Assembly (NCBI GenBank): GCA_017474765.1
Contig: JAFVGW010000034.1
Span: 217,694 to 281,693, forward strand
Reading direction: 5' to 3'
Source: Salinivirgaceae bacterium
GTDB lineage: Bacteria > Bacteroidota > Bacteroidia > Bacteroidales > SZUA-534
Length of the DNA stretch: 64,000 nt
Shown: positions 15,430 to 60,736 of the stretch, in pieces
Numbering within the stretch: the first letter of the stretch is position 1
How the letters are laid out: each line of letters starts with the position of its first letter
Translations under genes and position numbers: made by a program
Notes under the pieces: model-generated
What the model was told of the DNA's origin: nothing
Databases searched by the model: none
Seen by the model: the letters and a program-made list of their open reading frames with translations, nothing else

Positions 15430-15502
<73 letters not shown>

Positions 15503-19155: not shown

Positions 19156-20255
19156 TCACTTTTTTGAAAAGAAGCGCCTTAGCTCCTGCGTTCCATTTCG
19201 CACTTCATCAATGATTTGCTGACAACGCAACCGAGATATGCGAATGTTAATCCCGACAGTTATCATATCCTCATCAGAAGGCAAACCACTATAATTAACG
19301 GTCGAAGCGTGCTCGCCCAACGTAGCATCGTTAGTCAAATCGTAGGCTGGGGCAAGCGTCCAACGCCCCTCGCGACAAATGAAACTGAAATTTCGGGCGT
19401 GATCATCCATATTTTGGGCGCAAATGTTGAATGCCATCCGACGGAACTGCTGTTCCACTGCCTCAGGCGACTGCGTAAGGTAGCCGTGAGTTGCAGCAGG
19501 CTGTGGTAATCCATTTTGGGTGGCGTTATGGGCTCGTTGAGAAGGGCGCTGGCTGTCGCAACGTGCAAACGGACGCCACTTTCAATATCGAACCGCCTTG
19601 TTGCAAAATATTTTCCACCAATCAGTTTAAAATCAGGCACATCGATACCGCACTGGCGGGCCACTTTATTATACTGATACTCGATTTCGCCCATATTTTT
19701 AGGGTCATAGGTGTGGCGAAACTTGACCAACCACTGTCCATCGGCATCAGTAAAAAGGCATTTAGGGCGCACTCCGCCAGAATTGCCGCTTTTGAAATAC
19801 AAGGCCTCGGCGTTATCATCGGTCTTTTCAGATAAAACATCGAGGGCCATCTGCTGAATCTCGTCTAACGACAAAGCATCCGTATTAGCAGGCAACTTGG
19901 TTTCGGGTACGTAGCACAACGCCCCCATACCCGAACTGCCAATAATACTAAGCCATTGAACTGGTGAGAATTGCCGAAAATCAACACCCAACTTTTTTAA
20001 CATTTTTCGCAAAAGATACTCGCCATAGCCACCTGGCAGACTATCCTCAAATACGCCGAAATTACCGTTGAACGGAGAATAATCGGCAGTGAAGAGTCCA
20101 GCCTTCAACGGCAGTTTCAACGGCGATATTGAGAATCCATCGGCAAGCCAGCTCTTGTCATACTCAAACTGGCAATTAGTGCCGCTGCCAACCGACAACG
20201 TTCCGACCTTCCGACCGTGATACATCACGCTTACAGCCTGCACATTTAGCATCAT
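19156..20255 (-). pseudogene. hipA: hipA-family toxin kinase, disrupted by a frameshift
   Basis: ORF 19335-20255 encodes the HipA N-terminal and core parts (GGVRPKCLF...). ORF 19156-19458 is in a different frame (start coordinates differ mod 3) and encodes the C-terminal catalytic part (FRRMAFNICAQNMDDHARNFSF...APAYDL). The second frame is already open and HipA-like upstream (..YLTQSPEAVEQQFRRM), so the shift lies at about 19460-19500. Confidence 0.75.
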
Positions 20256-20566
20256 ACACCTCGCTTTCTTGTACGGTTTTTATTGATTTCCAATAGTTCC
20301 TCCATTGTGTCATATTTCGGTGCCGCAAGTAGTTGCATTATCTCTTCGGAGTAGCCCAAAGCCTTGGCTAACTTGACATAAGATTCAAGCGAAATGGCGT
20401 ATTTCAGTTCGAATCGCTGAATCGAGGAGGCTGGCACGCCGCTCATCGCCGACAGACTCTTTGTCGACAGTTTTTTTTCGAGCCGCCTTGCTTTCAAATT
20501 CTCGGCCAACCTCCGCATTGTTACTTGCAATGGATAAGGGTCGTATTCATATCTGTTCTGCACCAT
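20252..20566 (-). CDS. hipB: XRE-family HTH antitoxin (HipB-like)
   Basis: 104 aa with HTH LSTKSLSAMSGVPASSIQRFE. Its stop overlaps the hipA start by 4 nt. Confidence 0.72.
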   Translation of the reverse strand: MVQNRYEYDPYPLQVTMRRLAENLKARRLEKKLSTKSLSAMSGVPASSIQRFELKYAISLESYVKLAKALGYSEEIMQLLAAPKYDTMEELLEINKNRTRKRGV

Positions 20567-26093: not shown

Positions 26094-27584
26094 ATGAGTA
26101 AAGTTATGCTTAAAAAAATTAGAACAACCGTTGCAGTTATCGTGTTTGCACTGATAACGCTTTTGTTCCTCGATTTCACGGGGACAATTCACGCCTATTT
26201 CGGCTGGCTGGCGAAAATCCAGTTTCTGCCCGCATTTCTGGCAATGAATATCGGCATCGTCATCGGGCTGATTCTTCTGACATTCATCTTCGGAAGACTG
26301 TACTGCTCCGTGATTTGCCCATTAGGAATCATGCAGGATATTTTCGGACGATTCGGACGCATCGGTAAAAAGAAAAAATACCGCTACACGTTCTCGAAAA
26401 ACCACGCCATTCTGCGAGTTATTTTACTGATAGTGTTCAGCATAACGCTTGCCATTCCAGGCATAAGCGCCATTGCCCACCTGATTGCCCCGTACAGCGC
26501 TTTCGGGCGGATTGCGGCAAACCTGCTTGCTCCCGTCTATGCGTTGGGCAACAACTGCCTGGCATATTTTGCCGAACGCGCCGACAGTTATATGTTCTAC
26601 CATGTTGACGTCTGGATGAAGAGCGCGTTCTCCTTCATTGTTGCCGCACTAACGCTGATTGTGCTGGCCGTTCTGGCCTGGCGCAACGGCCGCACCTGGT
26701 GCAACAACATCTGCCCCATTGGGACAATTCTGGGCTACATTTCGAAATATTCAATTTTCAAACCGCACATCGATACTGAGAAGTGCAAGAATTGCGGACT
26801 TTGCACACGCAGTTGCAAGGCAGCCTGCATCGATTCTGAAAACCACACTATCGACTACAGCCGCTGCGTTGACTGCTTCAACTGCATCGACACCTGCAAG
26901 CACGGAGCCATCAGTTACTGCCGCCGCACTATCAGCCAGAGTGCCAGCAATGGTGAGCCCGACAAATCGAAACGCGCGTTTCTGACCACATCGGCACTGT
27001 TTCTGGCAGGCGCAACCGTGAAGGCACAAGAGAAGAAGGTTGACGGCGGACTGGCCATGATTCAGGACAAGCAGATTCCGAACCGCCGAATACCGCCCAA
27101 ACCCGCGGGAGCGCAGAGCCTGAAGCACTTCACAAACAGTTGCACGGCCTGCCAACTATGCGTATCGGTTTGCCCGAACAACGTTTTGCGGCCATCGAGC
27201 GACATATCATCGCTGATGCAGCCCGAGATGCAGTTCACCGACGGCTACTGCCGCCCCGAGTGCACACGCTGCTCGGAGGTCTGCCCCACAGGCGCGATTA
27301 TGAAGATTACGCCAGCCGAGAAATCATCAACACAAATCGGCCATGCAGTTTGGATAATGCACAACTGCATTGTGGAGACCGACGGCGTTCAGTGCGGCAA
27401 CTGCGCGCGGCACTGCCCTGTGGGCGCCATCAGCCTGGTAAGCAGCCAATCAAATCCCAACCTCAAAATTCCAGCCGTAAATGCCGAACGCTGCATCGGC
27501 TGCGGCGAGTGTGAGTACATCTGCCCCGCCCGTCCGTTCAGCGCCATCTATGTTGAGGGAAATGAAGTTCAACGCGAAATCTGA
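26094..27584 (+). CDS. membrane polyferredoxin: NapH-like 4-TM module with two CX3CP motifs and two Fe-S motifs, fused through a fifth hydrophobic segment to a NapG-like four-cluster domain
   Basis: 496 aa with hydrophobic helices at about aa 12-28, 45-66, 105-131 and 177-196. It carries CSVICP and CNNICP, then CKNCGLCTRSC and CVDCFNCIDTC. SKRAFLTTSALFLAGATV lies at aa 292-309. Four further motifs follow: CTACQLCVSVCP, CRPECTRCSEVCP, C-x8-CGNCARHCP and CIGCGECEYICP. Confidence 0.8.
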   Translation: MSKVMLKKIRTTVAVIVFALITLLFLDFTGTIHAYFGWLAKIQFLPAFLAMNIGIVIGLILLTFIFGRLYCSVICPLGIMQDIFGRFGRIGKKKKYRYTFSKNHAILRVILLIVFSITLAIPGISAIAHLIAPYSAFGRIAANLLAPVYALGNNCLAYFAERADSYMFYHVDVWMKSAFSFIVAALTLIVLAVLAWRNGRTWCNNICPIGTILGYISKYSIFKPHIDTEKCKNCGLCTRSCKAACIDSENHTIDYSRCVDCFNCIDTCKHGAISYCRRTISQSASNGEPDKSKRAFLTTSALFLAGATVKAQEKKVDGGLAMIQDKQIPNRRIPPKPAGAQSLKHFTNSCTACQLCVSVCPNNVLRPSSDISSLMQPEMQFTDGYCRPECTRCSEVCPTGAIMKITPAEKSSTQIGHAVWIMHNCIVETDGVQCGNCARHCPVGAISLVSSQSNPNLKIPAVNAERCIGCGECEYICPARPFSAIYVEGNEVQREI

Positions 27585-27589
27585 CAACA

Positions 27590-29419
27590 ATGAATACAAA
27601 TAAAGAAATGAACCGCCGTCAGTTCCTTAAGATATTAGGAACTGGAACTGTGGCCTCGGCCGCCATCATGACAGGCTGCTCGAAAGACGGCGGCAAGAAA
27701 TCGGCAAACGCCAGCCATGACGAAATGGCAACTGGCCAGATGACCTACCGCACAGGCAAGCATGGCGAAAAAGTGTCAATTTTGGGCTACGGCTGCATGC
27801 GATTCCCCACAAAAAGCGGCGCGAGCGGCCGCGAAGACCGCAACGGCGAACTCGACCAGGAGCAGATTGACCGCCTGATTGGCTACGCAATCGAGCACGG
27901 CGTCAACCTTTTCGACACATCGCCAGCCTACTGCCGTGGACAGTCGGAAGGCGCTCTGGGCAAGGCTTTGAGCCGATTCCCGCGCGATAAGTTCATGGTT
28001 TCCACCAAGATGTCGAACTTCGGCAACTGGTCGCGCGAGGCTTCTATCGAGATGTATCACAACTCGATGCGTGAGTTGCAGGTCGATTATATTGATTTCT
28101 ACCTTCTGCACGCCATTGGCGGCGATTGGAAAGGTTTCGAAGACCGCTTCATCAGCAACGGAATACTCGATTTTCTGCTCGAGGAGCGGGCCGCTGGCCG
28201 AATCAAGAATCTCGGATTCTCGTTCCACGGCGACGTGAAGGTGTTCGACCGTGTTTTGGCAATGGACGACACCTGCCATTGGGATTTTGCTCTTATTCAG
28301 CATAGTTACGTCGATTGGCACCACGCCCAACTAATGAATCCGCGCAACGTCAATTCGGAATATCTCTACGGCGAACTTGCCAAACGCGACATTCAGGCGT
28401 TTGTGATGGAGCCGCTGCTCGGCGGCCGTCTGGCCAAACTCAGCACCCACGCCGAGGAGTTGCTCAAAGCCCGCGACCCCGAGTCCAGCATTGCTTCGTG
28501 GGCGTTCCGTTTCTCGGGGTCGCAGCCAAAAATCCTGACGGTTCTGAGCGGAATGACATATATGGAGCACTTGCAAGACAACGTGAAGACATACTCGCCG
28601 CTTAAACCGCTCAACGACAGCGAGTTTGAACTTTTGGAGCAGATTGCCGACATAATCGCAAACTTCCCCGCCGTGCCTTGCAACACCTGCCAGTACTGCA
28701 TGCCGTGCCCCTACGGACTCGACATTCCTGGCATCTTCTCGCACTACAACAAGTGCCTGAACGAGGGTAATGTGGTTGAGGATTTGAAGAATCCCGAATA
28801 CAAGAAAGCCCGCAAGGCGTTCCTCGTGGGCTACGACCGCAGCGTGCCGCGCCTGCGACAGGCCAGCCACTGCATAGAGTGTCGCCACTGCATACCCGAG
28901 TGTCCGCAGCGCATCAACATTCCGCGCGAAATGCGCCGAATCGACAATTTTGTTGAATCGCTCAAGCGCAACGGTGCCGATTTGGGCCGCGCTGTGACGA
29001 TGGCCGCGCTCATCAAGCAACTCGACAGCGGCCGCTACTCGTGCGTCATCAGCAATGGCGGCGAGACTCGCACCTATAATCAAAAGGGCGTTCAGGATTT
29101 GCACGACATTGTGCGCGACGCCGACCCGTTTGCCAAAGGCGCACAAATTGCCGACAAGGTGATAGGCAAAGGCGCGGCATCGCTCATTGTGCTGGCTGGA
29201 TTCACCGATGTGTTCGCCCACACCATCTGCACCACTGGCAAAGAAATGCTGCTGGCCAACGGTATTCACGTGTCGTTCGACGAAGAGGTTGACTACATCA
29301 TCAATAATGCGGGAACCGACTGGTGCCCTGTGGAAAAACTAGTGAAAGACTGCAAAACAGCCGATGAATGCTGGCCGAAGATTGTCCAGTTTGTGAAGGA
29401 AATGCGCCACGAAATTTGA
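27590..29419 (+). CDS. Tat-signal lipoprotein aldo-keto reductase with C-terminal Fe-S motifs (COG1453-type) and a DUF1893-like domain
   Basis: 609 aa. MNRRQFLKILGTGTVASAAIMTGC gives a twin-arginine motif plus lipobox. AKR catalytic positions are LFDTSPAY, VSTK and LLHAI. Cluster motifs are CNTCQYCMPCP and CIECRHCIPECP. The aa 471-609 tail (RYSCVISNGGE...ADKVIGKGAASLIVLAG...GTDWCPVEK) resembles DUF1893/TM1506, from memory. Confidence 0.8.
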   Translation: MNTNKEMNRRQFLKILGTGTVASAAIMTGCSKDGGKKSANASHDEMATGQMTYRTGKHGEKVSILGYGCMRFPTKSGASGREDRNGELDQEQIDRLIGYAIEHGVNLFDTSPAYCRGQSEGALGKALSRFPRDKFMVSTKMSNFGNWSREASIEMYHNSMRELQVDYIDFYLLHAIGGDWKGFEDRFISNGILDFLLEERAAGRIKNLGFSFHGDVKVFDRVLAMDDTCHWDFALIQHSYVDWHHAQLMNPRNVNSEYLYGELAKRDIQAFVMEPLLGGRLAKLSTHAEELLKARDPESSIASWAFRFSGSQPKILTVLSGMTYMEHLQDNVKTYSPLKPLNDSEFELLEQIADIIANFPAVPCNTCQYCMPCPYGLDIPGIFSHYNKCLNEGNVVEDLKNPEYKKARKAFLVGYDRSVPRLRQASHCIECRHCIPECPQRINIPREMRRIDNFVESLKRNGADLGRAVTMAALIKQLDSGRYSCVISNGGETRTYNQKGVQDLHDIVRDADPFAKGAQIADKVIGKGAASLIVLAGFTDVFAHTICTTGKEMLLANGIHVSFDEEVDYIINNAGTDWCPVEKLVKDCKTADECWPKIVQFVKEMRHEI

Positions 29420-29532
29420 CGCAGCAGCATCAATAATGGCAGATTTTTTCCGATTATTGCAAAACAAAATGACGGGAAAATCTGCCGCCAAGATGCGCAA
29501 ACTGATGTGAAACAAAAGATAAATAACTGGTT

Positions 29533-29730
29533 ATGACTCGATTACTTTTTTTAGGCTCAATCGGATTACAGGAGATTCTGATTATCGCCCTCATTGTGCT
29601 GCTGCTGTTTGGCGGCAAAAAAATTCCCGAACTGATGAAGGGTTTGGGCAAGGGCGTGAAAAGTTTCAAAGACGGCATGAACAGCACCGACGCGCCATCC
29701 GATAAAGCCGAAAAGGATGACACAAAATAA
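29533..29730 (+). CDS. tatA: twin-arginine translocase subunit TatA/E
   Basis: 65 aa with LQEILIIALIVLLLFGGKKIPELMKGLGKGVKSFK. Confidence 0.85.
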   Translation: MTRLLFLGSIGLQEILIIALIVLLLFGGKKIPELMKGLGKGVKSFKDGMNSTDAPSDKAEKDDTK

Positions 29731-30490
29731 GGAACTGACATTCTGGGAGCACCTCGACGAACTTCGCGGCAGCATTGTCCGCATTCTGGCCGCCGTGCTG
29801 GTGTTCGCCATTGCGGCGTTCTGCTTCAAAGAGCAGGTTTTTGCCGCGGTGCTGGCTCCCAAAAGTGATGGTTTCGCCACCTACCGCTTGTTCGAATCGC
29901 TCGGCGCCACGGTTGGCCCGTTCAAAGTGAGCCTCATCAACACCGAGTTGGCGCAACAGTTCCTCGTTCACATCAAAATATCGTTTTTCGTGGGCCTGCT
30001 TGCAGTGTCGCCTTACATTCTCTACGCCCTGTTCCGCTTTGTGTCGCCCGCGCTCTACACCAGCGAGCGGCGGATTGCCGTGAAAGCCGTTGGCAGCGGC
30101 TACCTAATGTTCATTATTGGCACGCTGCTGGCCTATTTCCTGATTTTTCCGCTCACCTTCCGCTTTTTAGGCACCTATCAGGTGAGTGCCGACGTGGCGA
30201 ACTACATCTCGCTCACTTCTTATATCGATACCCTTCTGACGCTCTGCCTTCTGATGGGGCTGATGTTTGAACTGCCCGTTCTCTGCTGGGTTCTGGCCCG
30301 TATGGGGATTTTGAGTCATAAGTTTCTGACTACCTACCGCCGCCACGCCGTTGTAGCCATCTGCATTGCATCGGCCATCATCACACCCACCGCCGACGCC
30401 TTCACGCTGTTTGTGGTGGTCGTGCCCATCTATCTGCTCTACGAGTTGAGCATCGGCATTGTGAAGATGACGGAAAACAAGCATCTATAA
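29717..30490 (+). CDS. tatC: twin-arginine translocase subunit TatC
   Basis: 257 aa. LTFWEHLDELRGSIVRIL is followed by six hydrophobic helices. It overlaps tatA by 14 nt. Confidence 0.9.
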   Translation: MTQNKELTFWEHLDELRGSIVRILAAVLVFAIAAFCFKEQVFAAVLAPKSDGFATYRLFESLGATVGPFKVSLINTELAQQFLVHIKISFFVGLLAVSPYILYALFRFVSPALYTSERRIAVKAVGSGYLMFIIGTLLAYFLIFPLTFRFLGTYQVSADVANYISLTSYIDTLLTLCLLMGLMFELPVLCWVLARMGILSHKFLTTYRRHAVVAICIASAIITPTADAFTLFVVVVPIYLLYELSIGIVKMTENKHL

Positions 30491-30893: not shown

Positions 30894-33452
30894 ATGAACA
30901 CTAAACTAACGATTGCAACATTGTTTTTGTGCGGCTCGGCAATGGTGTCGAACGCGCAACTGGAACAAGTGTCACCAACAACGATTCCGCTTGTCTATCC
31001 TACGGAGAACACTGGAATCCTATTTGGGAAACCCGCATTTCTTACAGCCGACCAGATGGAAAGCTGTGCAACACTACCCGACCCCTTTGCCTGGTCTGAT
31101 GGTTCCGGCCGCTCAGAAGAGTTTGCCGATTGGGCAAAACGCCGCAGTGAAATCAAGAGCGAGGTTGAATATTATGAAATAGGTGTCAAGCCTGATGTGG
31201 ACCGCGACCAAGTCGACGCCTACTATGTTGATACCTCAGTGGTTGAACGTACAGCTCACTATGATTGGTCCTCAGTTACCGATTGGAATAACATTGATTG
31301 GAGTAAAGTAAAGGTTACTTATACAATGGACACTGTAAAAAGGAAATTGTTGATTGTAAAAGTTACAGTTGAAGACTCAACGGCGACATTAACATCTGAA
31401 TTGACAATTCCTGAAGGCGATGGTCCATTCCCCGTATTTATCAGCCTGGGCGGCTCGGGTTTTGCCAGCGATTTCCCAGGTTGCATCCAATTGAGTTTCA
31501 ATACTAACCAAGTGGCCACATACGGAAGCACAAGCGCCCGATACGACGGCGACATTTCCAAACAGAAAGATCAATTTAACTCACTTTATCCAGAGTTGTA
31601 TGACAACGGCAACTACAGCAAATGGGCTTGGGGTGTGAGCCGTTTGATTGATGGTCTGGAAATTGCCAAAGAGAAAGGACAGCTTAACGTCGATATTGCG
31701 CACATAGCACTAAGCGGATGCTCGTATGCCGGCAAAATGGCCATGTTCTGCGGCGCATTCGACGAGCGCGTTGCCCTCACCATAGCCCAAGAACCTGGTG
31801 GCGGTGGTGCCAGCGCATGGCGTACAATAGATTATGTGAATAAGAATAAAATAATGAAAAAATACAAAGATGGTGTTGAAGGCCTCGGCAATACCAACTA
31901 CTCTTGGTTTATGGCCAGCCTTCAAAAATTCAACGGTAAGGCCGACCTTCTTCCACACGACCATCACGAGATTCTGGCAATGTGTGCCCCACGTGCACTG
32001 TTAGTGCTTGGCAACACTGATATGGAGTGGCTCTGCGACTACTCAACTTACATCACTTGCCGCGCCGCCGAAAAAGTGTACGAGACATTCGGCATTGAGG
32101 ACCGCTTTGGATTTGTTATTGACGGCGGACACGACCACTGCTCGGCAACAACTGCTGAAAGAAACGCCGTTAAAGCTTTTGCCGCCAAATTCATCTTTGG
32201 CGATACCACAGCAAACACTCTCATCCGCACTGCCATCAACGGCAGCCAATACGACATTGATGACGTCGACTACGAAAGTTGGTATGAAGAATGGAAGCCA
32301 GCCGACCCGAACCGTCCGAATATCAGCATTGTAGAACCAGCTTCCAGCACAACCTACAGAGCTGAAGATGCTCCTGAATCTGTCAAATTTAAAGCGCAGG
32401 TTGAAGACAAAAACAATGATGTTGCCAAAGTTGAATTCTTTGTTAACGGCACAGTGGCAAAAACAGTGACCGCGGCTCCGTATGAATTTGAACTGAAACT
32501 TACCGAACCTGGAGACTACAACGTTTACGCTATTGCAACCGATGCCACGAATTTATACAAGAGGTCTGGGACAATTTCAATTGTTGTAAAAACACCAGAA
32601 GTAGGCGTTAAACGCACTGCTACCGCACCAAAAATCGACGGCATACTCGACGATGTTTGGGCAAAATCTGACAAATTCCATGCTAAAAACGTGGTTCAAG
32701 GCTCAATCGACAATGAGGAAGATTTAAGCGGCCACGTCCAACTGCTGTGGGATGATACTTACGTATACGCATTCGCAACCGTTTTCGACAATGAGCTAAA
32801 AAACGACAGTGGCTCCGATGTTTACAAAGATGACAACATTGAACTGTATTTCGACTGCAATAACTCAAAGGGCGGCTCTTACGACTCCGACGATGTTCAA
32901 TTCTCGTTCAACTATGGCAGCACAAGCATATATACCAAATCAGGTTCGGGCGACAACCAATATTCCACTGAAGGAATCGAATTTGTGATAGACGAAAACC
33001 GTGACGGTTACAATGTTGAAGTTGCAATTCCGTGGGCAACAATCAAGTGCAAGCAACCTAAAGAAGGATTGAAGATTGGTTTCGAATTCATGATTGATGA
33101 CGACGATGATGGCGGCGACCGTGATGGTAAACTTGCCTGGAACTCAACCGAAGACAACGCTTGGCAAAGTGCGTTCTATTTCGGCACAGTCACACTGCTT
33201 GGTGAAGGCACGGCCATTAATGAAATTGAAGAGTTGGAATTATCGTTCTACCCGAATCCGGCCAGCGATTTCTTATATGTAAACGGTATCGATGGGGAAT
33301 TCGATTATGAGATTTTCGACATTGCAGGAATGATTCAAACCGCAGGAACAGCCAGCAAGCGCATCAGCGTGGCCATTCTGCCCAAAGGCATTTACCTTGT
33401 TCGAATCAAAGACGGCATTTTGACTCGGAACTTGAGGTTCGTCAAGAAATAA
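30894..33452 (+). CDS. secreted CE15 glucuronoyl esterase - Ig-like - CBM9-like - T9SS type A C-terminal sorting domain protein
   Basis: 852 aa with a signal peptide. CE15 blocks recalled from Cip2 are present: YSKWAWGVSRLIDGLE, SGCSYAGKMAMFCGAFDERVALTIAQEPGGGGASAWR, LPHDHHEILAMCAPRAL and GGHDHCS. The CBM9-like part is APKIDGILDDVWAK...LYFD. The CTD is LSFYPNPASDFLYV...LPKGIYLVRI. Confidence 0.75.
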   Translation: MNTKLTIATLFLCGSAMVSNAQLEQVSPTTIPLVYPTENTGILFGKPAFLTADQMESCATLPDPFAWSDGSGRSEEFADWAKRRSEIKSEVEYYEIGVKPDVDRDQVDAYYVDTSVVERTAHYDWSSVTDWNNIDWSKVKVTYTMDTVKRKLLIVKVTVEDSTATLTSELTIPEGDGPFPVFISLGGSGFASDFPGCIQLSFNTNQVATYGSTSARYDGDISKQKDQFNSLYPELYDNGNYSKWAWGVSRLIDGLEIAKEKGQLNVDIAHIALSGCSYAGKMAMFCGAFDERVALTIAQEPGGGGASAWRTIDYVNKNKIMKKYKDGVEGLGNTNYSWFMASLQKFNGKADLLPHDHHEILAMCAPRALLVLGNTDMEWLCDYSTYITCRAAEKVYETFGIEDRFGFVIDGGHDHCSATTAERNAVKAFAAKFIFGDTTANTLIRTAINGSQYDIDDVDYESWYEEWKPADPNRPNISIVEPASSTTYRAEDAPESVKFKAQVEDKNNDVAKVEFFVNGTVAKTVTAAPYEFELKLTEPGDYNVYAIATDATNLYKRSGTISIVVKTPEVGVKRTATAPKIDGILDDVWAKSDKFHAKNVVQGSIDNEEDLSGHVQLLWDDTYVYAFATVFDNELKNDSGSDVYKDDNIELYFDCNNSKGGSYDSDDVQFSFNYGSTSIYTKSGSGDNQYSTEGIEFVIDENRDGYNVEVAIPWATIKCKQPKEGLKIGFEFMIDDDDDGGDRDGKLAWNSTEDNAWQSAFYFGTVTLLGEGTAINEIEELELSFYPNPASDFLYVNGIDGEFDYEIFDIAGMIQTAGTASKRISVAILPKGIYLVRIKDGILTRNLRFVKK

Positions 33453-39470: not shown

Positions 39471-40625
39471 ATGAAAATTAGAGAAAATTCTGCGATTCAC
39501 TATATCGGTTGCGACGACACCGATTTGGATTTGTTTGAGAATCAGTACATTGTGCCAGAAGGGATGGCCTATAACTCATATCTGATTGAAGATGAAAAGA
39601 TTGCCATTACCGACACCGTCGACGTCCGCAAGAGCGATGAGTGGCGGAAGAATTTGCAAGCCGCGCTCAACGGCCGCCAGCCCGATTTCCTTGTGGTTCA
39701 CCATCTTGAGCCCGACCATTCGGCAAACATCAGCTGGGTGATGGACACTTTTGCTGGCTGTCGGATTGTCTGCTCAGCCAAGGCCGCTGCCTTCCTGCCG
39801 CAGTTCTTCGGGACTGATTTCGCAGGCCGCGTCGACATTGTGAAAGAAGGCGATACTCTGTCGCTTGGCGCTCATACTCTGCAATTTATAATGGCGCCGA
39901 TGATTCACTGGCCCGAAGTGATGGTTTCGTACGAGCAGACCGAAAAAGTGCTTTTCGCCGCCGACGCTTTCGGCAAGTTTGGCGCTCTCTGCAACGAGAC
40001 CGACCACTGGGCTTGCGAGGCTCGCCGCTACTATTTCAACATTGTCGGCAAGTACGGCAATCCTGTTCAGACTTTGCTGAAGAAAGCCGCCGCGCTCGAC
40101 ATTCAGACCATCTGCCCGCTGCACGGCCCAATCTTGAAAGAAAATCTCGGTTATTACATCGGTTTATATCAGACTTGGAGCGCCTATCAGCCTGAAACAA
40201 AGGGCGTTTTCATTGCTTACGCGTCGCTGCACGGCAACACTGCCAAAGCCGCCGAGGAACTTGCCGCAATGCTTGAGGCCAAGGGTGAGAAGGTTGCTAT
40301 TTCCGACCTTTCGCGCGCAGATATTGCCGAGTGCGTTGAGGATGCCTTCCGCTACGACCGCATGGTGCTTTGCGCCTCGTCGTACGATGGCGGCGTGATG
40401 CCTCTGATGCGCGAATTTCTGTGTCACCTGTCCGACAAAACCTACCAAAAACGCACCGTGGCGCTGGTTGAGAACGGCACGTGGGCTCCGTCGGCGGCAC
40501 GCACAATGCGCGCTCTGCTTGAGCCGCTGAAAGAGGTAACCATTCTTGAGCAGACCGTCACCATCAAAACAACATTGAATGACGACAGCCGCGCGGCGCT
40601 GAAGCAGCTTGCCGCAGCGTTGTAA
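39471..40625 (+). CDS. FprA-type flavodiiron protein (metallo-beta-lactamase-like + flavodoxin-like domains)
   Basis: 384 aa with the di-iron ligand motif HHLEPDHSAN and a C-terminal flavodoxin-like domain (FIAYASLHGNTAKAAEEL). Confidence 0.85.
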   Translation: MKIRENSAIHYIGCDDTDLDLFENQYIVPEGMAYNSYLIEDEKIAITDTVDVRKSDEWRKNLQAALNGRQPDFLVVHHLEPDHSANISWVMDTFAGCRIVCSAKAAAFLPQFFGTDFAGRVDIVKEGDTLSLGAHTLQFIMAPMIHWPEVMVSYEQTEKVLFAADAFGKFGALCNETDHWACEARRYYFNIVGKYGNPVQTLLKKAAALDIQTICPLHGPILKENLGYYIGLYQTWSAYQPETKGVFIAYASLHGNTAKAAEELAAMLEAKGEKVAISDLSRADIAECVEDAFRYDRMVLCASSYDGGVMPLMREFLCHLSDKTYQKRTVALVENGTWAPSAARTMRALLEPLKEVTILEQTVTIKTTLNDDSRAALKQLAAAL

Positions 40626-58044: not shown

Positions 58045-58716
58045 ATGAGTAATTCTTGTTTGTCATCAATCGGAAAGAAACTGATAATGAGTATATCAGG
58101 TCTTTTCCTGGTTTTGTTTTTGCTGTTCCACATGTCGATGAACCTTGTGGCAGTATTTAGTGGCGAGGCTTACAATGCCGTGTGCGAATTCCTTGGCGCC
58201 AACTGGTATGCCTTGGTTGGAACAATGGTTCTGGCTCTCGGATTTATTGTTCACATTGTGTTCGCCTTCATTCTGAGCCTTCAGAACCGCAAGGCGCGCG
58301 GCACTGAGCGTTACGCTTATCAGGAGAAACCCGCCGCAGTTGAGTGGGCATCGCAGAATATGCTGGTGCTCGGCTGCATTGTGTTTGTGGGCCTGATTCT
58401 TCACTTGAGCCAATTCTGGTACAAGATGCAGTTTGCCGAGATTGCGGGCATCACCAATCAGTATGGTGTGGCCGACGGTGCCGCTTGGATGCAGTACTAC
58501 TTCAGCCAACTGCCTGTAGTCATCTGCTATCTGGTTTGGTTCGTGGCCATCTGGTTCCACCTGAGCCACGGCTTCTGGAGCGCTCTGCAGACCATTGGCT
58601 GGAACAACAAGGTTTGGATGGACCGCTGGAAATGCATCTCGAACATTTTTGCGACAGTCGTTATGCTCGGTTTCGCAGCAGTGGTTATCGCCGCTTACAT
58701 TAAATCGCTTTGCTAA
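58045..58716 (+). CDS. sdhC: succinate dehydrogenase/fumarate reductase cytochrome b subunit (Bacteroides type)
   Basis: 223 aa with five hydrophobic helices carrying conserved His residues. It is the first gene of the sdhCAB-type cluster. Confidence 0.85.
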   Translation: MSNSCLSSIGKKLIMSISGLFLVLFLLFHMSMNLVAVFSGEAYNAVCEFLGANWYALVGTMVLALGFIVHIVFAFILSLQNRKARGTERYAYQEKPAAVEWASQNMLVLGCIVFVGLILHLSQFWYKMQFAEIAGITNQYGVADGAAWMQYYFSQLPVVICYLVWFVAIWFHLSHGFWSALQTIGWNNKVWMDRWKCISNIFATVVMLGFAAVVIAAYIKSLC

Positions 58717-58735
58717 CTATCTAATTTGAAATAAA

Positions 58736-60715
58736 ATGGCTACAATAGATTCTAAAATACCTGAAGGTCCGATAGCCGAAAAATGGACCAACTATAAGGC
58801 ACATCAAAAACTTGTGAACCCTGCCAACAAGCGTAAATTGGACATCATTGTCGTTGGAACAGGTTTGGCTGGCGCATCGGCAGCATCAACTTTGGCCGAG
58901 ATGGGTTTCAACATCCTGAACTTCTGCATTCAGGACTCACCGCGCCGCGCTCACTCAATTGCGGCTCAGGGCGGTATCAACGCAGCAAAGAACTATCAGA
59001 ACGACGGCGACTCGGTTTACCGCCTGTTCTACGATACTGTTAAAGGTGGCGACTATCGCGCACGCGAAGCCAACGTTTACCGTCTGGCCGAAGTGTCGAA
59101 CAACATCATCGACCAATGCGTGGCTCAGGGCGTTCCTTTCGCCCGCGAATATGGTGGCCTGCTTGCCAACCGTTCGTTCGGTGGCGCTCAGGTTAGCCGC
59201 ACATTCTACGCCAAAGGTCAGACTGGTCAGCAACTTCTGCTTGGCGCCTACTCATCGCTCAACCGCCAAATCAAGGCTGGCAAGGTGAAGAGTTACAACC
59301 GCTACGAGTTGCACGACATTGTTATGGTTGATGGCCGCGCCCGCGGTATCATCGCCAAAAACCTGGTGACTGGCGAGTTCGAGCGTTTTGCCGCTCACGC
59401 TGTTGTTCTGGCAACTGGCGGCTACGGCAACACCTACTTCCTTTCGACCAACGCTATGGGCTGCAACTGCTCGGCTGCCATCGCGGCTTACCGCAAGGGC
59501 GCTTACTTTGCAAACCCTTCATACGTACAGATTCACCCGACTTGTATTCCTGTTCACGGCGACAAACAATCGAAACTGACACTTATGTCGGAGTCGCTGC
59601 GTAACGACGGCCGCATCTGGGTTCCGAAGAAGATTGAAGACGCCAAGAAACTTCAGAAGGGCGAAATCAAAGGCTCTGACATTCCTGAAGAAGACCGCGA
59701 CTACTACTTGGAGCGCCGCTATCCCGCATTCGGCAACCTGGTTCCGCGCGACGTTGCAAGCCGCGCTGCCAAAGAGCGCTGCGACAAGGGCTTCGGCGTG
59801 AACAACACTGGCCTGGCCGTGTTCCTTGACTTCTCTGAAGCCATCAACCGTCTTGGCATCGACGTTGTCCGTCAGCGCTACGGCAACCTGTTCGATATGT
59901 ACGAAGAGATTTCGGACGTTAATCCTGGCGAGTTCGCACGCGAGATTAACGGTGTGAAATACTACAACCCGATGATGATTTTCCCCGCCATCCACTACAC
60001 AATGGGTGGTCTGTGGGTTGACTACGAACTTCAGACTTCAGTGAAGGGCCTGTTCGCCATTGGCGAGTGCAACTTCTCTGACCACGGCGCCAACCGTCTG
60101 GGTGCTTCGGCTCTGATGCAGGGTCTGGCCGACGGCTATTTCGTTCTGCCTTACACCATTCAGAACTACCTGAGCGACCAAATCACCGTTCCGCGCTTCG
60201 ACCCGAACAGCAAGGAGTTCATCGATGCTCAGAAGAAATGCGAAGCCGAACAGGACGCTCTGATGAAAATCAAGGGCAAACGCTCGGTTGACTCTATCCA
60301 CAAGGATTTGGGCCACATTATGTGGGAATACGTTGGTATGGGCCGCACCAAAGAGAGCCTTGAGACAGCGCTCACCAAACTGAAAGAGTTGCGCAAGGAG
60401 TTCGAAACCAACCTGTTCATCCCTGGAAAGGAAGAAGGTATGAATGTCGAACTCGACAAGGCCTTCCGTTTGAAAGACTTTATTATGATGGGCGAACTGA
60501 TTGCCCGCGACGCACTGAGCCGTAACGAGAGCTGCGGCGGCCACTTCCGTGAGGAGTACCAAACTGAAGAGGGCGAGGCAAAACGCGACGACGAGAACTA
60601 CTTCTACGTTGGCTGCTGGAACTATCAGGGCGACGACAACAAAGAGCCTGAACTGCTGAAAGAACCGCTTAAATATGAGGCTATCAAGGTTCAAACTCGT
60701 AACTATAAATCATAA
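58736..60715 (+). CDS. sdhA: succinate dehydrogenase/fumarate reductase flavoprotein subunit
   Basis: 659 aa with the FAD-binding motif [26 protein letters not shown] (covalent FAD His) and HPTCIP...HYTMGG. Confidence 0.92.
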
Positions 60716-60736
60716 TCATCTTAAAAAGTAAATCAA

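What the first reader, a model, noticed from the sequence alone, without database searches (positions are those of the whole stretch)
26094..30490. Candidate periplasmic, quinol-driven reductase module: NapH/NapG-like fused polyferredoxin + Tat-lipoprotein aldo-keto reductase + tatAC
Seen: four co-directional genes. Gene 1 (26094-27584) has four N-terminal TM helices with two CX3CP motifs and two ferredoxin motifs, which is the NapH/NosH/RdhC-type layout. A fifth hydrophobic segment and four more cluster motifs follow, which is the NapG-type layout. Gene 2 starts 5 nt later. It begins with a textbook Tat signal (NRRQFLK) ending in a lipobox (MTGC), followed by an AKR domain that keeps the D/Y/K/H catalytic positions. 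After the AKR domain come two Cys cluster motifs and a DUF1893-like tail. tatA and tatC follow 113 nt downstream. Established: AKRs normally use cytoplasmic NAD(P)H. NapGH passes menaquinol electrons to periplasmic reductases. Tat exports folded cofactor proteins. Inference: an AKR placed outside the cytoplasm, carrying its own Fe-S centres and encoded behind a membrane polyferredoxin, would be reduced through a quinol/Fe-S wire rather than by NAD(P)H. That would make it a respiratory-style terminal reductase (or oxidase) for an unknown carbonyl, sugar or quinone substrate. I know of no characterised system of this kind.
Basis: partly seen in the sequence, partly recalled or inferred. Interest (0 to 1): 0.72.

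Follow-up and report, generated by a model that had tools for sequence, protein, structure and literature searches.

The report
Iron-sulfur-wired periplasmic aldo-keto reductase module
A gut or rumen Bacteroidales genome encodes a conserved two-gene unit next to its folded-protein export genes: an aldo-keto reductase that is normally cytoplasmic has been moved outside the cytoplasm and paired with a membrane iron-sulfur "wire", which suggests an uncharacterised way of driving this enzyme class without free NAD(P)H.

Summary
Gene 1 (26094-27584, likely true start 26106) is a NapH-NapG fusion polyferredoxin. It has four strong TM helices, two CX3CP motifs, two cytoplasmic and four periplasmic [4Fe-4S] motifs, and an internal Tat motif before a weakly hydrophobic fifth helix. 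That architecture was shown in 2017 to be inserted jointly by Sec and Tat. Gene 2 (27590-29419) is a Tat-signal lipoprotein with an AKR barrel (tetrad D109/Y114/K140/H174 invariant), nine invariant cluster cysteines and a DUF1893 domain. tatA and tatC follow.

New evidence:
- In 80 related genomic loci, mostly Bacteroidales, gene 1 lies directly upstream of gene 2 in 71.
- tatC lies within 8 kb in 20-25 loci (chance p<1e-27).
- The wider AKR-FeS family is mostly about 375 aa and has no signal peptide. Four such cytoplasmic relatives have no NapH-like neighbour.

The polyferredoxin pairing therefore goes with export, which supports an electron-wire role. The donor (quinol or cytoplasmic), the direction, the substrate and independence from NAD(P)H remain untested. 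About a third of loci add an ECF-S-like transporter, and some add a TonB-dependent receptor, which hints at micronutrient processing rather than respiration. Parts of this were noted before (Tooke 2017, Iyer 2011). I found no description of the pairing itself. Verdict: a new variant of a known kind, of fairly high interest.

The parts
26094..27584 (+). Gene 1: NapH-NapG fusion polyferredoxin (496 aa from 26094; probable true start 26106, 492 aa)
   Evidence: ORF. Pfam Fer4_5 x2 plus several Fer4 diclusters, and NCBIfam NapH and NapG hits below cut-off. TM and Cys motifs. All 32 motif cysteines are conserved in at least 69 of 71 homologues. Start codon comparison with L001.
26094..26966 (+). 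NapH-like part: four TM helices (residues 14-32, 48-66, 109-127, 177-195), CX3CP motifs at 71 and 203, and two [4Fe-4S] motifs at 231-241 and 258-268 predicted on the cytoplasmic side
   Evidence: Hydropathy and positive-inside charge distribution: the N-terminus has 4 K/R and loop 67-108 has 10 K/R. NCBIfam NapH/MauN alignment to residues 182-275.
26967..27032 (+). Internal Tat-type motif S-K-R-A-F-L (residues 292-297) and the weakly hydrophobic TM5 (about 298-313), ending in V-K-A|Q-E-K-K
   Evidence: 68 of 71 homologues have [ST]RRxF[LM] here; the window, L001 and L068 have K-R. TM5 mean KD is 1.24 across the family, against 2.0-2.8 for TM1-4. A small-x-small motif follows in 66 of 71. This matches the Sec-to-Tat hand-over features described in PMC5449189.
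27033..27584 (+). NapG-like domain with four [4Fe-4S] motifs (Cys 350-360, 386-397, 425-441, 467-477), predicted periplasmic
   Evidence: NCBIfam MauM/NapG alignment to residues 336-477 and NapG to 291-479. Cys conservation. Nearest solved relatives are generic polyferredoxins such as MvhB and FwdF.
27590..29419 (+). Gene 2: Tat-signal lipoprotein with AKR barrel, 2x[4Fe-4S]-type Cys module and DUF1893 domain (609 aa)
27590..27679 (+). Twin-arginine signal (N-R-R-Q-F-L-K) with lipobox M-T-G-C30
   Evidence: R9, R10, F12 and C30 are invariant in 58 homologues. Pfam TAT_signal scores 16.6 bits, below the 22.7 cut-off. NCBIfam formate_TAT hit is weak. AF2 pLDDT is below 50 for residues 1-47.
27737..28663 (+). 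Aldo-keto reductase (alpha/beta)8 barrel with catalytic tetrad D109, Y114, K140, H174
   Evidence: Pfam Aldo_ket_red scores 115 bits against a cut-off of 24. The tetrad is invariant and aligns to the AKR1B1 tetrad. AF2 pLDDT is about 85-97. Foldseek top hits are all AKRs, with TM-score normalised to the target of 0.7-0.8.
28667..28924 (+). Cys-rich Fe-S module: C364/367/370/373, C389 and C428/431/434/438-P
   Evidence: Fer4_9 E 7e-6 (26.4 bits, cut-off 27), Fer4_17 and Fer4_8. Nine cysteines are invariant. The model is only moderately confident here, pLDDT about 60-79.
29009..29395 (+). DUF1893 / TM1506 (deaminase-like fold) domain with the invariant D522-K523 'ADKVIGKGAA' motif and C579-P580
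   Evidence: Pfam TM1506 scores 135.9 bits against a cut-off of 27. Alignment to PDB 1vk9. D522 aligns with the Asp reported as ADP-ribosylated in TM1506, allowing for the 12-residue tag. pLDDT is about 87-95.
29437..29487 (+). Conserved RNA hairpin in the g2-tatA spacer (function unknown; no U-tract follows)
   Evidence: MFE -32.4 kcal/mol and z = -3.9 for 29415-29540. The spacer is 93% identical to L001.
29533..29730 (+). tatA
   Evidence: TIGR01411 tatAE scores 64.8 bits against a cut-off of 53.9; Pfam TatA_B_E.
29717..30490 (+). tatC (overlaps tatA by 14 nt)
   Evidence: TIGR00945 scores 170 bits against a cut-off of 132.7; Pfam TatC 213 bits.

Best explanation
Genes 1 and 2 encode a dedicated two-component oxidoreductase that works on the periplasmic side of the inner membrane and is assembled by the adjacent TatAC translocase.

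Gene 1. Its first four helices are inserted by Sec, leaving two [4Fe-4S] clusters and the CX3CP cysteines on the cytoplasmic side. The fifth, weakly hydrophobic helix carries an internal twin-arginine-type motif. It hands the pre-folded four-cluster NapG-like domain to Tat, which places it in the periplasm.

Gene 2. It folds and receives its Fe-S clusters, and any bound organic cofactor, in the cytoplasm. Tat then exports it and it is lipid-anchored at Cys30. Where DUF1893 is encoded as a separate ORF without a signal peptide, it would be carried along with gene 2 by Tat hitch-hiking.

Electron path. Electrons pass between the membrane and the AKR active site along the chain of Fe-S clusters: NapH part, then NapG part, then the two clusters of gene 2. 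The source is menaquinol or a cytoplasmic low-potential donor feeding the NapH-side clusters. At the active site the Asp/Tyr/Lys/His tetrad protonates a carbonyl- or quinone-type substrate. I consider reduction of a periplasmic small molecule the more likely direction.

Shown here: the domain content, the conservation of signals, ligands and tetrad, the operon-level linkage of g1, g2 and tat, and the restriction of the polyferredoxin partner to the exported clade.

Inferred: actual cluster binding, the physical g1-g2 contact, the electron donor, the direction, the substrate, and whether a nicotinamide cofactor is still used.
For: Domain and motif anatomy.

Gene 1 matches the NapH-NapG fusion class that has been shown experimentally to need Sec plus Tat (PMC5449189):
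- Internal RR motif in 68 of 71 homologues, K-R in the window.
- TM5 is much less hydrophobic than TM1-4.
- Lys residues follow TM5.

Gene 2 is exported: RR, F12 and the lipobox Cys are invariant.

Synteny: g1 lies directly upstream of the AKR gene in 71 of 80 loci, spanning Bacteroidales, one Opitutales MAG and one Kapaibacterium MAG.

tatC lies within 8 kb in 20-25 of 80 loci, binomial p<1e-27.

The wider AKR-FeS family (29,232 hits) is dominated by proteins of about 375 aa that have no signal peptide. Four cytoplasmic members in unrelated genomes have no Fer4_5/NapH neighbour. The polyferredoxin is therefore recruited only where the enzyme has lost access to cytoplasmic reductants.

NapH-like proteins are documented modular conduits to periplasmic reductases and from periplasmic oxidases (PMC8238504).

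A fumarate reductase operon in the same window shows that the organism runs a quinone-based anaerobic chain.

DUF1893 is fused in 7 loci, and in 29 loci it is a separate abutting ORF without a signal peptide. That pattern is what a tight complex exported together would produce.
Against: - No experiment or structure shows Fe-S clusters in any AKR-FeS protein. Fer4_9 sits just under the Pfam cut-off (26.4 against 27 bits), and Iyer et al. read the same cysteines as a zinc ribbon.
- AKR chemistry is hydride transfer from NAD(P)H, and one-electron Fe-S centres cannot normally reduce NAD(P)+. Most AKR cofactor-pocket motifs are retained in both the exported and the cytoplasmic clades, so a bound nicotinamide cofactor is not excluded.
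- Menaquinol is too weak a reductant for ordinary aldehydes and ketones (own knowledge of midpoint potentials).
- g1 scores well below the NapH and NapG equivalog cut-offs, so quinol oxidation cannot be carried over by homology.
- Four of 80 loci have the AKR without g1 in the fetched locus.
- If the lipoprotein is sorted to the outer membrane, direct contact with an inner-membrane partner would be difficult, unless the NapG-like domain is cleaved off at the conserved KA|QE site.
- No multimer model could be made.
Confidence: 0.6

Rival explanations
1. Micronutrient or cofactor processing rather than respiration. The exported AKR-FeS(-DUF1893) enzyme reduces, or otherwise converts, a scarce small molecule in the periplasm. 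That molecule has entered through a TonB-dependent receptor and is then taken up by a solitary ECF-S-type membrane protein. The polyferredoxin only supplies the electrons. This keeps the same wiring but gives it a different physiological role.
For: A 5-TM protein of about 170 aa sits next to the AKR/DUF1893 genes in 25-26 of 80 loci, and a TonB-dependent receptor of about 640 aa in 7-8. NCBI names the 5-TM protein 'ECF transporter S component', and it gives a weak Pfam ECF_trnsprt hit. In B. cellulosilyticus the order is receptor, S-component, g1, AKR. The receptor's best NCBIfam hit is the B12 receptor family, below cut-off. Iyer et al. 2011 independently noted the link between TM1506, the AKR, a 5-TM protein and TonB receptors.
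Against: The window has no homologue of the 5-TM protein or the receptor within 64 kb. Two thirds of loci lack them. No riboswitch of any Rfam family was found in the window or in five such loci. Receptor specificity is undefined. Domains fused to cytoplasmic relatives are heterogeneous and point to no single pathway.
Confidence: 0.3
2. Reverse direction. Gene 2 is a periplasmic dehydrogenase that oxidises an alcohol, aldose or similar compound. It feeds the electrons through the NapG/NapH-like clusters into the menaquinone pool, where fumarate reductase consumes them.
For: Many AKRs act physiologically as dehydrogenases; the best PDB sequence matches are L-galactose dehydrogenases. NapH-like conduits are proposed to serve oxidases as well as reductases (PMC8238504). 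Electron flow from sugar or alcohol couples to menaquinone is downhill (own knowledge). Fumarate reductase is encoded in the window. The organism also secretes glycan-degrading enzymes, for example the CE15 esterase next door, so periplasmic sugars are available.
Against: Characterised NapGH and NosGH systems run from quinol to the periplasmic enzyme (own knowledge). The oxidative direction faces the same mismatch between hydride chemistry and one-electron carriers. There is no sugar-utilisation (PUL) gene linkage in the 80 loci.
Confidence: 0.2
3. Self-contained exported nicotinamide enzyme. Gene 2 is exported by Tat with a tightly bound NAD(P)(H), as in Zymomonas glucose-fructose oxidoreductase, possibly held with help from the nucleotide-binding DUF1893 domain. 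It catalyses a redox-neutral or ping-pong reaction. Its cysteine module is structural or regulatory, and gene 1 has a separate or only auxiliary role.
For: The catalytic tetrad and most pocket motifs are kept: S211, Q237, E-P-L 274-276, S-G 320-321 and N331. All structural neighbours are NAD(P)H enzymes. Tat export is the known route for proteins that bind nucleotide cofactors in the cytoplasm (own knowledge). [quoted passage not shown]
Against: This does not explain the near-obligatory g1-g2 linkage (71 of 80 loci) or its absence from the cytoplasmic clade. It does not explain nine invariant cysteines in ferredoxin-type spacing. DUF1893 is absent from half the loci. The canonical Asn that holds the nicotinamide carboxamide is replaced by Phe or Tyr.
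Confidence: 0.1
4. Redox sensor or regulator. The AKR-FeS-DUF1893 protein senses periplasmic or membrane redox state, or ADP-ribosylates a target, in order to gate a transporter, as Iyer et al. proposed for TM1506 systems. On this view it is not a catalytic oxidoreductase.
For: Contextual prediction in PMC3239186. Association with a channel- or transporter-like 5-TM protein in a third of loci. An exported paralogue with a degenerate tetrad exists (P0144).
Against: The catalytic tetrad is invariant in the clade that contains the window protein. A six-cluster polyferredoxin is an expensive partner for a sensor. No regulator gene is consistently linked; AraC-type genes occur in only 9 loci.
Confidence: 0.05

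Closest known systems
NapGH quinol dehydrogenase of periplasmic nitrate reductase (E. coli, Wolinella succinogenes); also NosGH and MauMN
   Same: A membrane NapH-type protein with four TM helices, two CX3CP motifs and two cytoplasmic [4Fe-4S] motifs works with a Tat-exported periplasmic four-cluster NapG-type ferredoxin. Together they carry electrons between the membrane and a Tat-exported periplasmic enzyme.
   Different: Here NapH and NapG are one polypeptide. HMM scores are far below the NapH and NapG equivalog cut-offs (83 against 213 bits; 68 against 179 bits). There is no molybdo-, copper- or haem enzyme nearby; the partner is an AKR-fold Fe-S lipoprotein. Quinol oxidation has not been shown.
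Dual Sec/Tat-inserted five-TM polyferredoxin (delta-proteobacterium MLMS-1 PFD, Q1NSB0; Tooke et al. 2017, PMC5449189)
   Same: The same NapH-NapG fusion architecture: a twin-arginine motif directly before a low-hydrophobicity TMD5, positive charges after it, and a C-terminal multi-cluster domain.
   Different: That work addressed biogenesis only, and no catalytic partner or function was assigned. The passages I read named Chloroflexi, Nitrospirae and Euryarchaeota as hosts, not Bacteroidales. The window protein has K-R instead of R-R. I did not align it directly with Q1NSB0.
NapH-like extracytosolic electron-transfer systems (PceC, Nos, and NirS- or ExaA-linked; Meheust et al. 2021, PMC8238504)
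   Same: A modular pairing of a NapH-type membrane Fe-S protein with diverse periplasmic reductases or oxidases.
   Different: Those systems were defined by an ApbE-flavinylated FMN-binding domain. Gene 1 has no FMN-binding domain hit and uses a NapG-type polyferredoxin instead. An AKR partner is not mentioned there: a search of the main text for 'aldo' found nothing.
Cytoplasmic AKR-FeS proteins ('aldo/keto reductase', about 375 aa; the COG1453-type group by my recollection)
   Same: The same AKR barrel with the intact tetrad and the same two-motif cysteine module. They are clear homologues, scoring 280-370 bits against the family profile.
   Different: They have no signal peptide, no lipobox and no NapH-like neighbour. 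They occur in Firmicutes, Spirochaetes and Acholeplasmataceae. None is characterised in the literature I could search.
TM1506 / DUF1893 operons (Xu et al. 2008; Iyer et al. 2011, PMC3239186)
   Same: A deaminase-fold domain with a conserved Asp-Lys pocket, genomically linked or fused to an AKR with a Cys-rich module, a 5-TM protein and TonB receptors.
   Different: The 2011 analysis did not mention the polyferredoxin, Tat export or the lipoprotein signal, and it read the Cys module as a zinc ribbon. It proposed a regulatory NAD/ADP-ribose role, not an electron-wired enzyme.
Zymomonas mobilis glucose-fructose oxidoreductase (Tat-exported periplasmic enzyme with non-dissociable NADP); own knowledge, not tested here
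   Same: Precedent for a nicotinamide-dependent oxidoreductase that works in the periplasm because Tat exports it with its cofactor bound.
   Different: It has a Rossmann (Gfo/Idh/MocA) fold, not an AKR fold. It has no Fe-S clusters and no membrane electron-transfer partner, and it is a ping-pong enzyme that needs no external electrons.

Membership tests
NapH (quinol dehydrogenase ferredoxin subunit NapH/MauN) | Four TM helices, two CX3CP motifs and two C-terminal [4Fe-4S] motifs | tested here: met
   TM helices at 14-32, 48-66, 109-127 and 177-195. CX3CP at 71 and 203. CX2CX2CX3C at 231 and 258. Two Pfam Fer4_5 stretches.
NapH (quinol dehydrogenase ferredoxin subunit NapH/MauN) | Score at or above the curated family cut-off | tested here: not met
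   TIGR02163 scores 83.1 bits against a cut-off of 213; NF007013 scores 77.2 against 234.
NapH (quinol dehydrogenase ferredoxin subunit NapH/MauN) | Encoded with a periplasmic nitrate reductase (napA) or an equivalent known partner | tested here: not met
   No molybdopterin enzyme was seen next to g1 in the window, and none forms a recurrent neighbour cluster in the 80 loci.
NapH (quinol dehydrogenase ferredoxin subunit NapH/MauN) | Quinol oxidation | not testable with these tools
   No sequence signature for the quinol site is established.
NapG (MauM/NapG ferredoxin-type protein) | Twin-arginine signal followed by four [4Fe-4S] motifs | tested here: met
   The motif is internal: S-K-R-A-F-L at 292-297, and R-R in 68 of 71 homologues. 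Four cluster motifs lie at 350-477.
NapG (MauM/NapG ferredoxin-type protein) | Score at or above the curated family cut-off | tested here: not met
   TIGR00397 scores 67.9 bits against 178.85; NF007012 scores 67.2 against 269.
Dual Sec/Tat polytopic polyferredoxin (Tooke et al. 2017) | Five TMDs, a twin-arginine motif directly before TMD5, a TMD5 of low hydrophobicity with positive charges after it, and an Fe-S domain after TMD5 | tested here: met
   TM5 mean KD is 1.04 in the window and 1.24 across the family, against 2.0-2.8 for TM1-4. 'KAQEKK' follows TM5. The window has the K-R variant.
Dual Sec/Tat polytopic polyferredoxin (Tooke et al. 2017) | Tat-dependent translocation of the C-terminal domain | not testable with these tools
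   Needs reporter fusions in tat+ and tat- hosts.
Aldo-keto reductase superfamily | (alpha/beta)8 barrel and Pfam Aldo_ket_red above the gathering score | tested here: met
   115.4 bits against 24. AF2 barrel pLDDT is about 85-97. The top 50 Foldseek hits are all AKRs.
Aldo-keto reductase superfamily | Catalytic tetrad Asp-Tyr-Lys-His | tested here: met
Aldo-keto reductase superfamily | NAD(P)(H) binding | tested here: inconclusive
   Motif-level equivalents of the Ser, Gln, E-P-L, S-G and Asn pocket positions are conserved, but the canonical Asn after S211 is Phe or Tyr. No coordinates were available to inspect the pocket.
Tat-exported lipoprotein | S/T-R-R-x-F-L-K motif, an h-region and a lipobox Cys | tested here: met
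   N-R-R-Q-F-L-K, then ILGTGTVASAAIM, then T-G-C30. R9, R10, F12 and C30 are invariant. 74 of 78 AKR ORFs in the loci carry RRxF[LI].
Tat-exported lipoprotein | Pfam TAT_signal at or above the gathering score | tested here: not met
   16.6 bits against 22.7. Short-motif HMMs are weak evidence here, and conservation is the stronger test.
[4Fe-4S] dicluster domain in gene 2 | Two Cys motifs with ferredoxin spacing, and a Pfam Fer4 family above cut-off | tested here: inconclusive
   The motifs are present and invariant. Fer4_9 scores 26.4 bits against 27 and Fer4_17 scores 20.3 against 22.2. Precomputed Pfam hits PF13187 are listed for most homologues. Metal content is unknown.
DUF1893 / TM1506 | Pfam PF08973 above the gathering score, and the conserved Asp-Lys pocket motif | tested here: met
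   135.9 bits against 27. D522 is invariant and K523 nearly invariant. Alignment to 1vk9.
TatA / TatC translocase | Curated HMM cut-offs | tested here: met
   tatAE scores 64.8 against 53.9; tatC scores 170.3 against 132.7.

The most novel reading that the evidence does not exclude
An aldo-keto-reductase-fold enzyme that has given up diffusible NAD(P)H altogether. On this reading, single electrons reach the AKR active site along an eight-cluster Fe-S chain: six clusters in the NapH-NapG fusion and two in the enzyme. The electrons come from the quinone pool or from cytoplasmic ferredoxin. This would make it a previously unrecognised class of periplasmic reductase, respiratory or nutrient-processing, present in at least several hundred of the 185,579 species-representative genomes scanned, mostly gut and rumen Bacteroidales. 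The deaminase-fold DUF1893 domain would serve as a co-exported cofactor- or substrate-handling subunit.
Probability: 0.3. Interest if true: 0.85.

Novelty: new variant of a known kind. Interest (0 to 1): 0.62.

Why it matters
AKRs are textbook NAD(P)H-dependent cytoplasmic enzymes. An AKR that works outside the cytoplasm and is fed by an iron-sulfur wire would extend the known chemistry of the superfamily. It would also give a first functional handle on the large uncharacterised AKR-FeS family, which has more than 29,000 cluster representatives, and on DUF1893.

The module is conserved in hundreds of Bacteroidales genomes, including cultured human-gut genera: Bacteroides cellulosilyticus, Phocaeicola, Parabacteroides and Dysgonomonas as isolates, and Alistipes mostly as MAGs. 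It could therefore represent an unrecognised electron sink, detoxification step or micronutrient-salvage step in a dominant gut lineage.

It also offers a natural test case for three aspects of Tat biology at a single locus: a Tat lipoprotein, a dual Sec/Tat polytopic protein, and probable hitch-hiker export. Its frequent adjacency to tatAC suggests it is a principal Tat client in these organisms.

Tried and rejected
1. Riboswitch search. An Rfam gathering-threshold scan of the window and five loci that carry the transporter and receptor genes found only one tRNA, at 15430-15502. There is no riboswitch clue to the substrate.
2. Gene-1 structure. I drew no topology or docking conclusions from it.
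3. Gene-1/gene-2 complex model.
4. Cofactor-pocket geometry. Model coordinates are not exposed, so only motif-level comparison was possible. The family HMM aligned my remembered AKR1B1 sequence only over the N-terminal half.
5. Fusion hints ('Rosetta stone'). Domains fused to cytoplasmic AKR-FeS relatives are heterogeneous: a TPP enzyme, histidine phosphatase, GCS2 plus peptidase C26, FkbM, and GNAT plus DUF1893. I rejected them as a pointer to a pathway. My first impression that P0184 carries MenD was confirmed only as a generic TPP enzyme.
6. TonB-dependent receptor specificity. The best NCBIfam hit is the B12 receptor family, far below cut-off (151 against 600 bits), so no assignment is possible.
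7. Sigma-70 promoter and intrinsic terminator scan. Matches were no more frequent than in shuffled sequence, and Bacteroidetes promoters are not covered by the tool.
8. Literature searches. Searches for an AKR / Tat / Bacteroides / 4Fe-4S system, for NapH or NapG with Bacteroides, and for Tat substrates in Bacteroidetes found no description of this module.
9. Classing gene 1 as a true NapH or NapG orthologue. Rejected, because the curated cut-offs are missed by a wide margin and no nap genes are present.

Full report
OBSERVATION

They are g1 at 26094-27584 (496 aa), g2 at 27590-29419 (609 aa, 5 nt after g1), tatA at 29533-29730 (113 nt after g2), and tatC at 29717-30490 (overlapping tatA by 14 nt). 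The divergent upstream genes are topoisomerase IV/gyrase-type subunits and are unrelated.

Gene 1. Pfam finds two Fer4_5 stretches, the NapH-type membrane-proximal motif, and several 4Fe-4S dicluster domains. NCBIfam's best hits are NapH/MauN (E 2e-23), NapH (1e-21), MauM/NapG (8.5e-19) and NapG (1e-18), all far below the curated cut-offs. My hydropathy and motif scan gives:
- Four strong helices, at residues 14-32, 48-66, 109-127 and 177-195.
- A lysine/arginine-rich N-terminus and 67-108 loop, which places them on the cytoplasmic side.
- CX3CP motifs at 71 and 203.
- Two CX2CX2CX3C motifs, at 231 and 258.
- Four more cluster motifs, at 350, 386, 425/434 and 467.

Gene 2. It has Aldo_ket_red (E 3e-33), a Cys module matched by Fer4_9/17/8 that sits just under the cut-offs, and DUF1893/TM1506 (E 8e-40). 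Its N-terminus reads MNTNKEMNRRQFLKILGTGTVASAAIMTGC. tatA and tatC pass the curated cut-offs.

GENE 1 BELONGS TO A KNOWN BIOGENESIS CLASS

Tooke et al. 2017 (PMC5449189) described polytopic polyferredoxins that are fusions of NapH and NapG. In these, four Sec-inserted helices are followed by a twin-arginine motif, a fifth helix of low hydrophobicity with positive charges after it, and a Tat-translocated multi-cluster domain. They showed Tat-dependent export for the MLMS-1 protein.

Gene 1 fits this description. In an alignment of 71 homologues taken from related loci, 68 have [S/T]-R-R-x-F-[L/M] directly before the fifth segment. The window protein, its closest relative L001, and L068 have S-K-R-A-F-L instead. 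Mean Kyte-Doolittle hydropathy of TM5 is 1.24 across the family (1.04 in the window), against 2.0-2.8 for TM1-4. TM5 is followed by '(V/L)-K-A-Q-E-K-K', and a small-x-small motif is present in 66 of 71. That could also be a signal-peptidase site that releases the NapG-like domain, which remains an open point. All cluster and CX3CP cysteines are conserved in at least 69 of 71 sequences. No solved structure covers the NapH-type membrane part; only generic polyferredoxin domains match.

GENE 2 IS AN EXPORTED MEMBER OF A MOSTLY CYTOPLASMIC FAMILY

A search of 5.8 billion proteins returned a saturated list of homologues. The closest ones are Bacteroidales proteins of 600-615 aa, named only 'DUF1893 domain-containing protein' or 'aldo/keto reductase'.

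In a 58-sequence alignment the following are invariant: the twin arginines, F12, the lipobox Cys30, the AKR tetrad D109/Y114/K140/H174, nine cluster cysteines (364, 367, 370, 373, 389, 428, 431, 434, 438), and D522 and C579-P580 of DUF1893.

The AF2 model is confident for the barrel and for DUF1893, and only moderate for the Cys module. Foldseek finds only ordinary NAD(P)H-dependent AKRs, and no solved protein has this architecture.

A profile search of 1.84 billion cluster representatives found 29,232 relatives. Below about 350 bits these are 370-380 aa proteins that align from their own first residue to query position about 51, so they have no signal peptide. Their sequences confirm this. 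They come from Firmicutes, Spirochaetes and Acholeplasmataceae and are named only 'aldo/keto reductase'. The window protein therefore belongs to a clade in which a cytoplasmic AKR-FeS enzyme has acquired a Tat-lipoprotein signal.

LINKAGE

The best 80 loci are almost all Bacteroidales: Muribaculaceae, Alistipes, Bacteroides including B. cellulosilyticus DSM 14838, Phocaeicola, Parabacteroides, Prevotella and Dysgonomonas. There is also one Opitutales MAG and one Kapaibacterium MAG. The closest match is a Salinivirgaceae MAG from yak reticulum, with 80% identity for g2 and about 90% for g1.

A fused NapH-NapG homologue is placed as follows in the 80 loci:
- Directly upstream of the AKR gene in 71 loci.
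- 0.5-2.2 kb upstream in 2 loci.
- Downstream in 1 locus.
- Absent from the fetched locus in 4 loci.
- The upstream region is cut off by a contig end in 2 loci.

tatA and tatC lie within 8 kb in 20-25 loci. For a 3 Mb genome the binomial chance of that is below 1e-27.

As a control, I examined four cytoplasmic AKR-FeS genes in unrelated genomes: Sphaerochaeta pleomorpha, Epulonipiscium viviparus, Sedimentibacter hydroxybenzoicus and an unnamed metagenomic contig. None has a Fer4_5/NapH neighbour. The polyferredoxin partner therefore goes with export. That is what one expects if it replaces cytoplasmic reductants. Four is a small sample.

DUF1893 AND OTHER NEIGHBOURS

DUF1893 is fused to the AKR in 7 of the 80 loci, as in the window. 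It is a separate abutting ORF without any signal peptide in 29, lies 1.3 kb away in 1, and was not found in the locus in 40. Fused forms are common in the protein database. A split, signal-less partner of a Tat substrate is the classic situation for hitch-hiker co-export; that is my inference.

The Asp reported as ADP-ribosylated in Thermotoga TM1506 aligns with the invariant D522, allowing for the 12-residue tag of PDB 1vk9.

Two further genes recur. The first is a 5-TM protein of about 170 aa, found in 25-26 loci. NCBI names it 'ECF transporter S component', and its Pfam ECF_trnsprt hit is below cut-off. The second is a TonB-dependent receptor of about 640 aa, found in 7-8 loci. In B. cellulosilyticus the gene order is receptor, S-component, g1, AKR. 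The window has neither gene within 64 kb. Iyer et al. 2011 (PMC3239186) had already recorded the TM1506 / AKR / 5-TM / TonB association, but not the polyferredoxin or the Tat export. No riboswitch was detected.

MECHANISM

The best-supported reading is a two-component periplasm-facing oxidoreductase assembled by TatAC. Its electron path runs through the NapH-side clusters, the four NapG-type clusters and the two clusters of gene 2 to the AKR active site.

- Shown: anatomy, conservation and linkage.
- Inferred: cluster occupancy, the g1-g2 contact, the donor, the direction and the substrate.

Three difficulties stand out.

1. AKRs use hydride transfer, and Fe-S centres deliver single electrons. 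Substrates that tolerate stepwise reduction, such as quinones, alpha-dicarbonyls and metal-containing or heterocyclic cofactors, would suit such a site. This is inference only.
2. Most AKR cofactor-pocket motifs are kept in both the exported and the cytoplasmic clades. Only the canonical Asn after S211 is replaced, by Phe or Tyr. A tightly bound nicotinamide cofactor exported with the protein therefore cannot be excluded. Zymomonas glucose-fructose oxidoreductase is the precedent (own knowledge).
3. Menaquinol is a weak reductant (own knowledge). The donor could instead be cytoplasmic ferredoxin acting through the NapH-side clusters, or the module could run in reverse as a dehydrogenase feeding the quinone pool. 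The window encodes fumarate reductase.

The transporter and receptor neighbours in a third of loci favour a role in processing an imported small molecule over bulk respiration. The window's own locus lacks them.

COMPARISON AND NOVELTY

Gene 1 works like NapGH, NosGH and the 'NapH-like' conduits surveyed by Meheust et al. 2021 (PMC8238504). It fails the NapH and NapG equivalog tests and has no nap genes nearby, so it should be called NapH-NapG-like. It does meet every sequence criterion of the Tooke dual Sec/Tat polyferredoxin class.

Gene 2 is a bona fide member of the AKR superfamily by fold and tetrad. NAD(P)H use is undetermined.

I found no paper describing the AKR-polyferredoxin pairing, any characterised AKR-FeS enzyme, or this module in Bacteroidales. 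Subscription journals are not covered by the library. I classify it as a new variant of a known kind: a NapGH-type conduit with a Tat-exported catalytic partner, where the partner is unprecedented.

VERDICT

Interest is 0.62. The finding is surprising for AKR enzymology, widespread in a dominant gut lineage, and directly testable in cultured carriers. It is tempered by partial prior art and by the unknown substrate.

Noticed in passing
window 29437-29487 (spacer 29420-29532): A stable hairpin (GGCAGAUUUUUUCCG...CGGGAAAAUCUGCC) lies between gene 2 and tatA. The fold z-score is -3.9 and no U-tract follows. The spacer is 93% identical to the Salinivirgaceae relative L001, against 80% for the region upstream of gene 1. 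It may be an mRNA processing, stability or translational-coupling element for tatAC.
   Followed up: partly
window 26094-26110: The first ATG of gene 1 (26094) is ATT in L001, while the second ATG (26106, MLKKIR...) is conserved, so the true start is probably 26106. A conserved 'CACTATyCTTGTGA' about 20 nt upstream resembles the Bacteroidetes -7 promoter box TAnnTTTG, with one mismatch.
   Followed up: partly
window 27020-27040 (gene 1 residues about 309-316): After TM5, 66 of 71 homologues have a small-x-small motif (mostly K-A|Q-E). This could be a signal peptidase I site, which would release the NapG-like four-cluster domain as a soluble periplasmic protein instead of leaving it tethered.
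   Followed up: partly
window 30894-33452 (+): An 852 aa secreted protein: a CE15 glucuronoyl esterase domain, an Ig-like domain (Big_7), CBM9 and a type IX secretion C-terminal sorting domain. It lies 400 nt downstream of tatC and is probably a separate transcription unit.
   Followed up: partly
window 58045-61498 (+): A three-gene fumarate reductase / succinate dehydrogenase-type operon: a membrane subunit without a Pfam hit, a flavoprotein and an Fe-S subunit. It indicates a quinone-based anaerobic respiratory chain in this organism.
   Followed up: partly
window 39471-40625 (+): A flavodiiron-type protein (ODP metallo-beta-lactamase domain plus flavodoxin domain). This architecture is usually associated with oxygen or nitric oxide detoxification in anaerobes (own knowledge).
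   Followed up: no
L084 6314-7255 (Sphaerochaeta pleomorpha CP003155.1): An ADP-ribosylglycohydrolase gene lies directly after a cytoplasmic AKR-FeS gene. This is curious given the reported ADP-ribosylation of the DUF1893 prototype TM1506, but it is a single case.
   Followed up: no
protein P0144: An exported (twin-arginine) AKR-FeS paralogue has a degenerate catalytic tetrad ('FATSPSH' in place of 'FDTSPAY') while keeping the cluster cysteines. It may be a non-catalytic or differently catalytic offshoot.
   Followed up: no
window 19335-20566 (-): Two small adjacent ORFs (306 aa and 104 aa) whose N-termini look to me like a HipA/HipB-type toxin-antitoxin pair. This is judged by eye only and was not scanned.
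   Followed up: no
loci L075 (1947-3856) and others: In B. cellulosilyticus a LytTR-type two-component system (His_kinase plus Response_reg/LytTR) lies immediately upstream of the receptor, S-component, g1, AKR cluster. AraC-type regulators occur near the module in 9 other loci. Regulation therefore appears to be lineage-specific.
   Followed up: no
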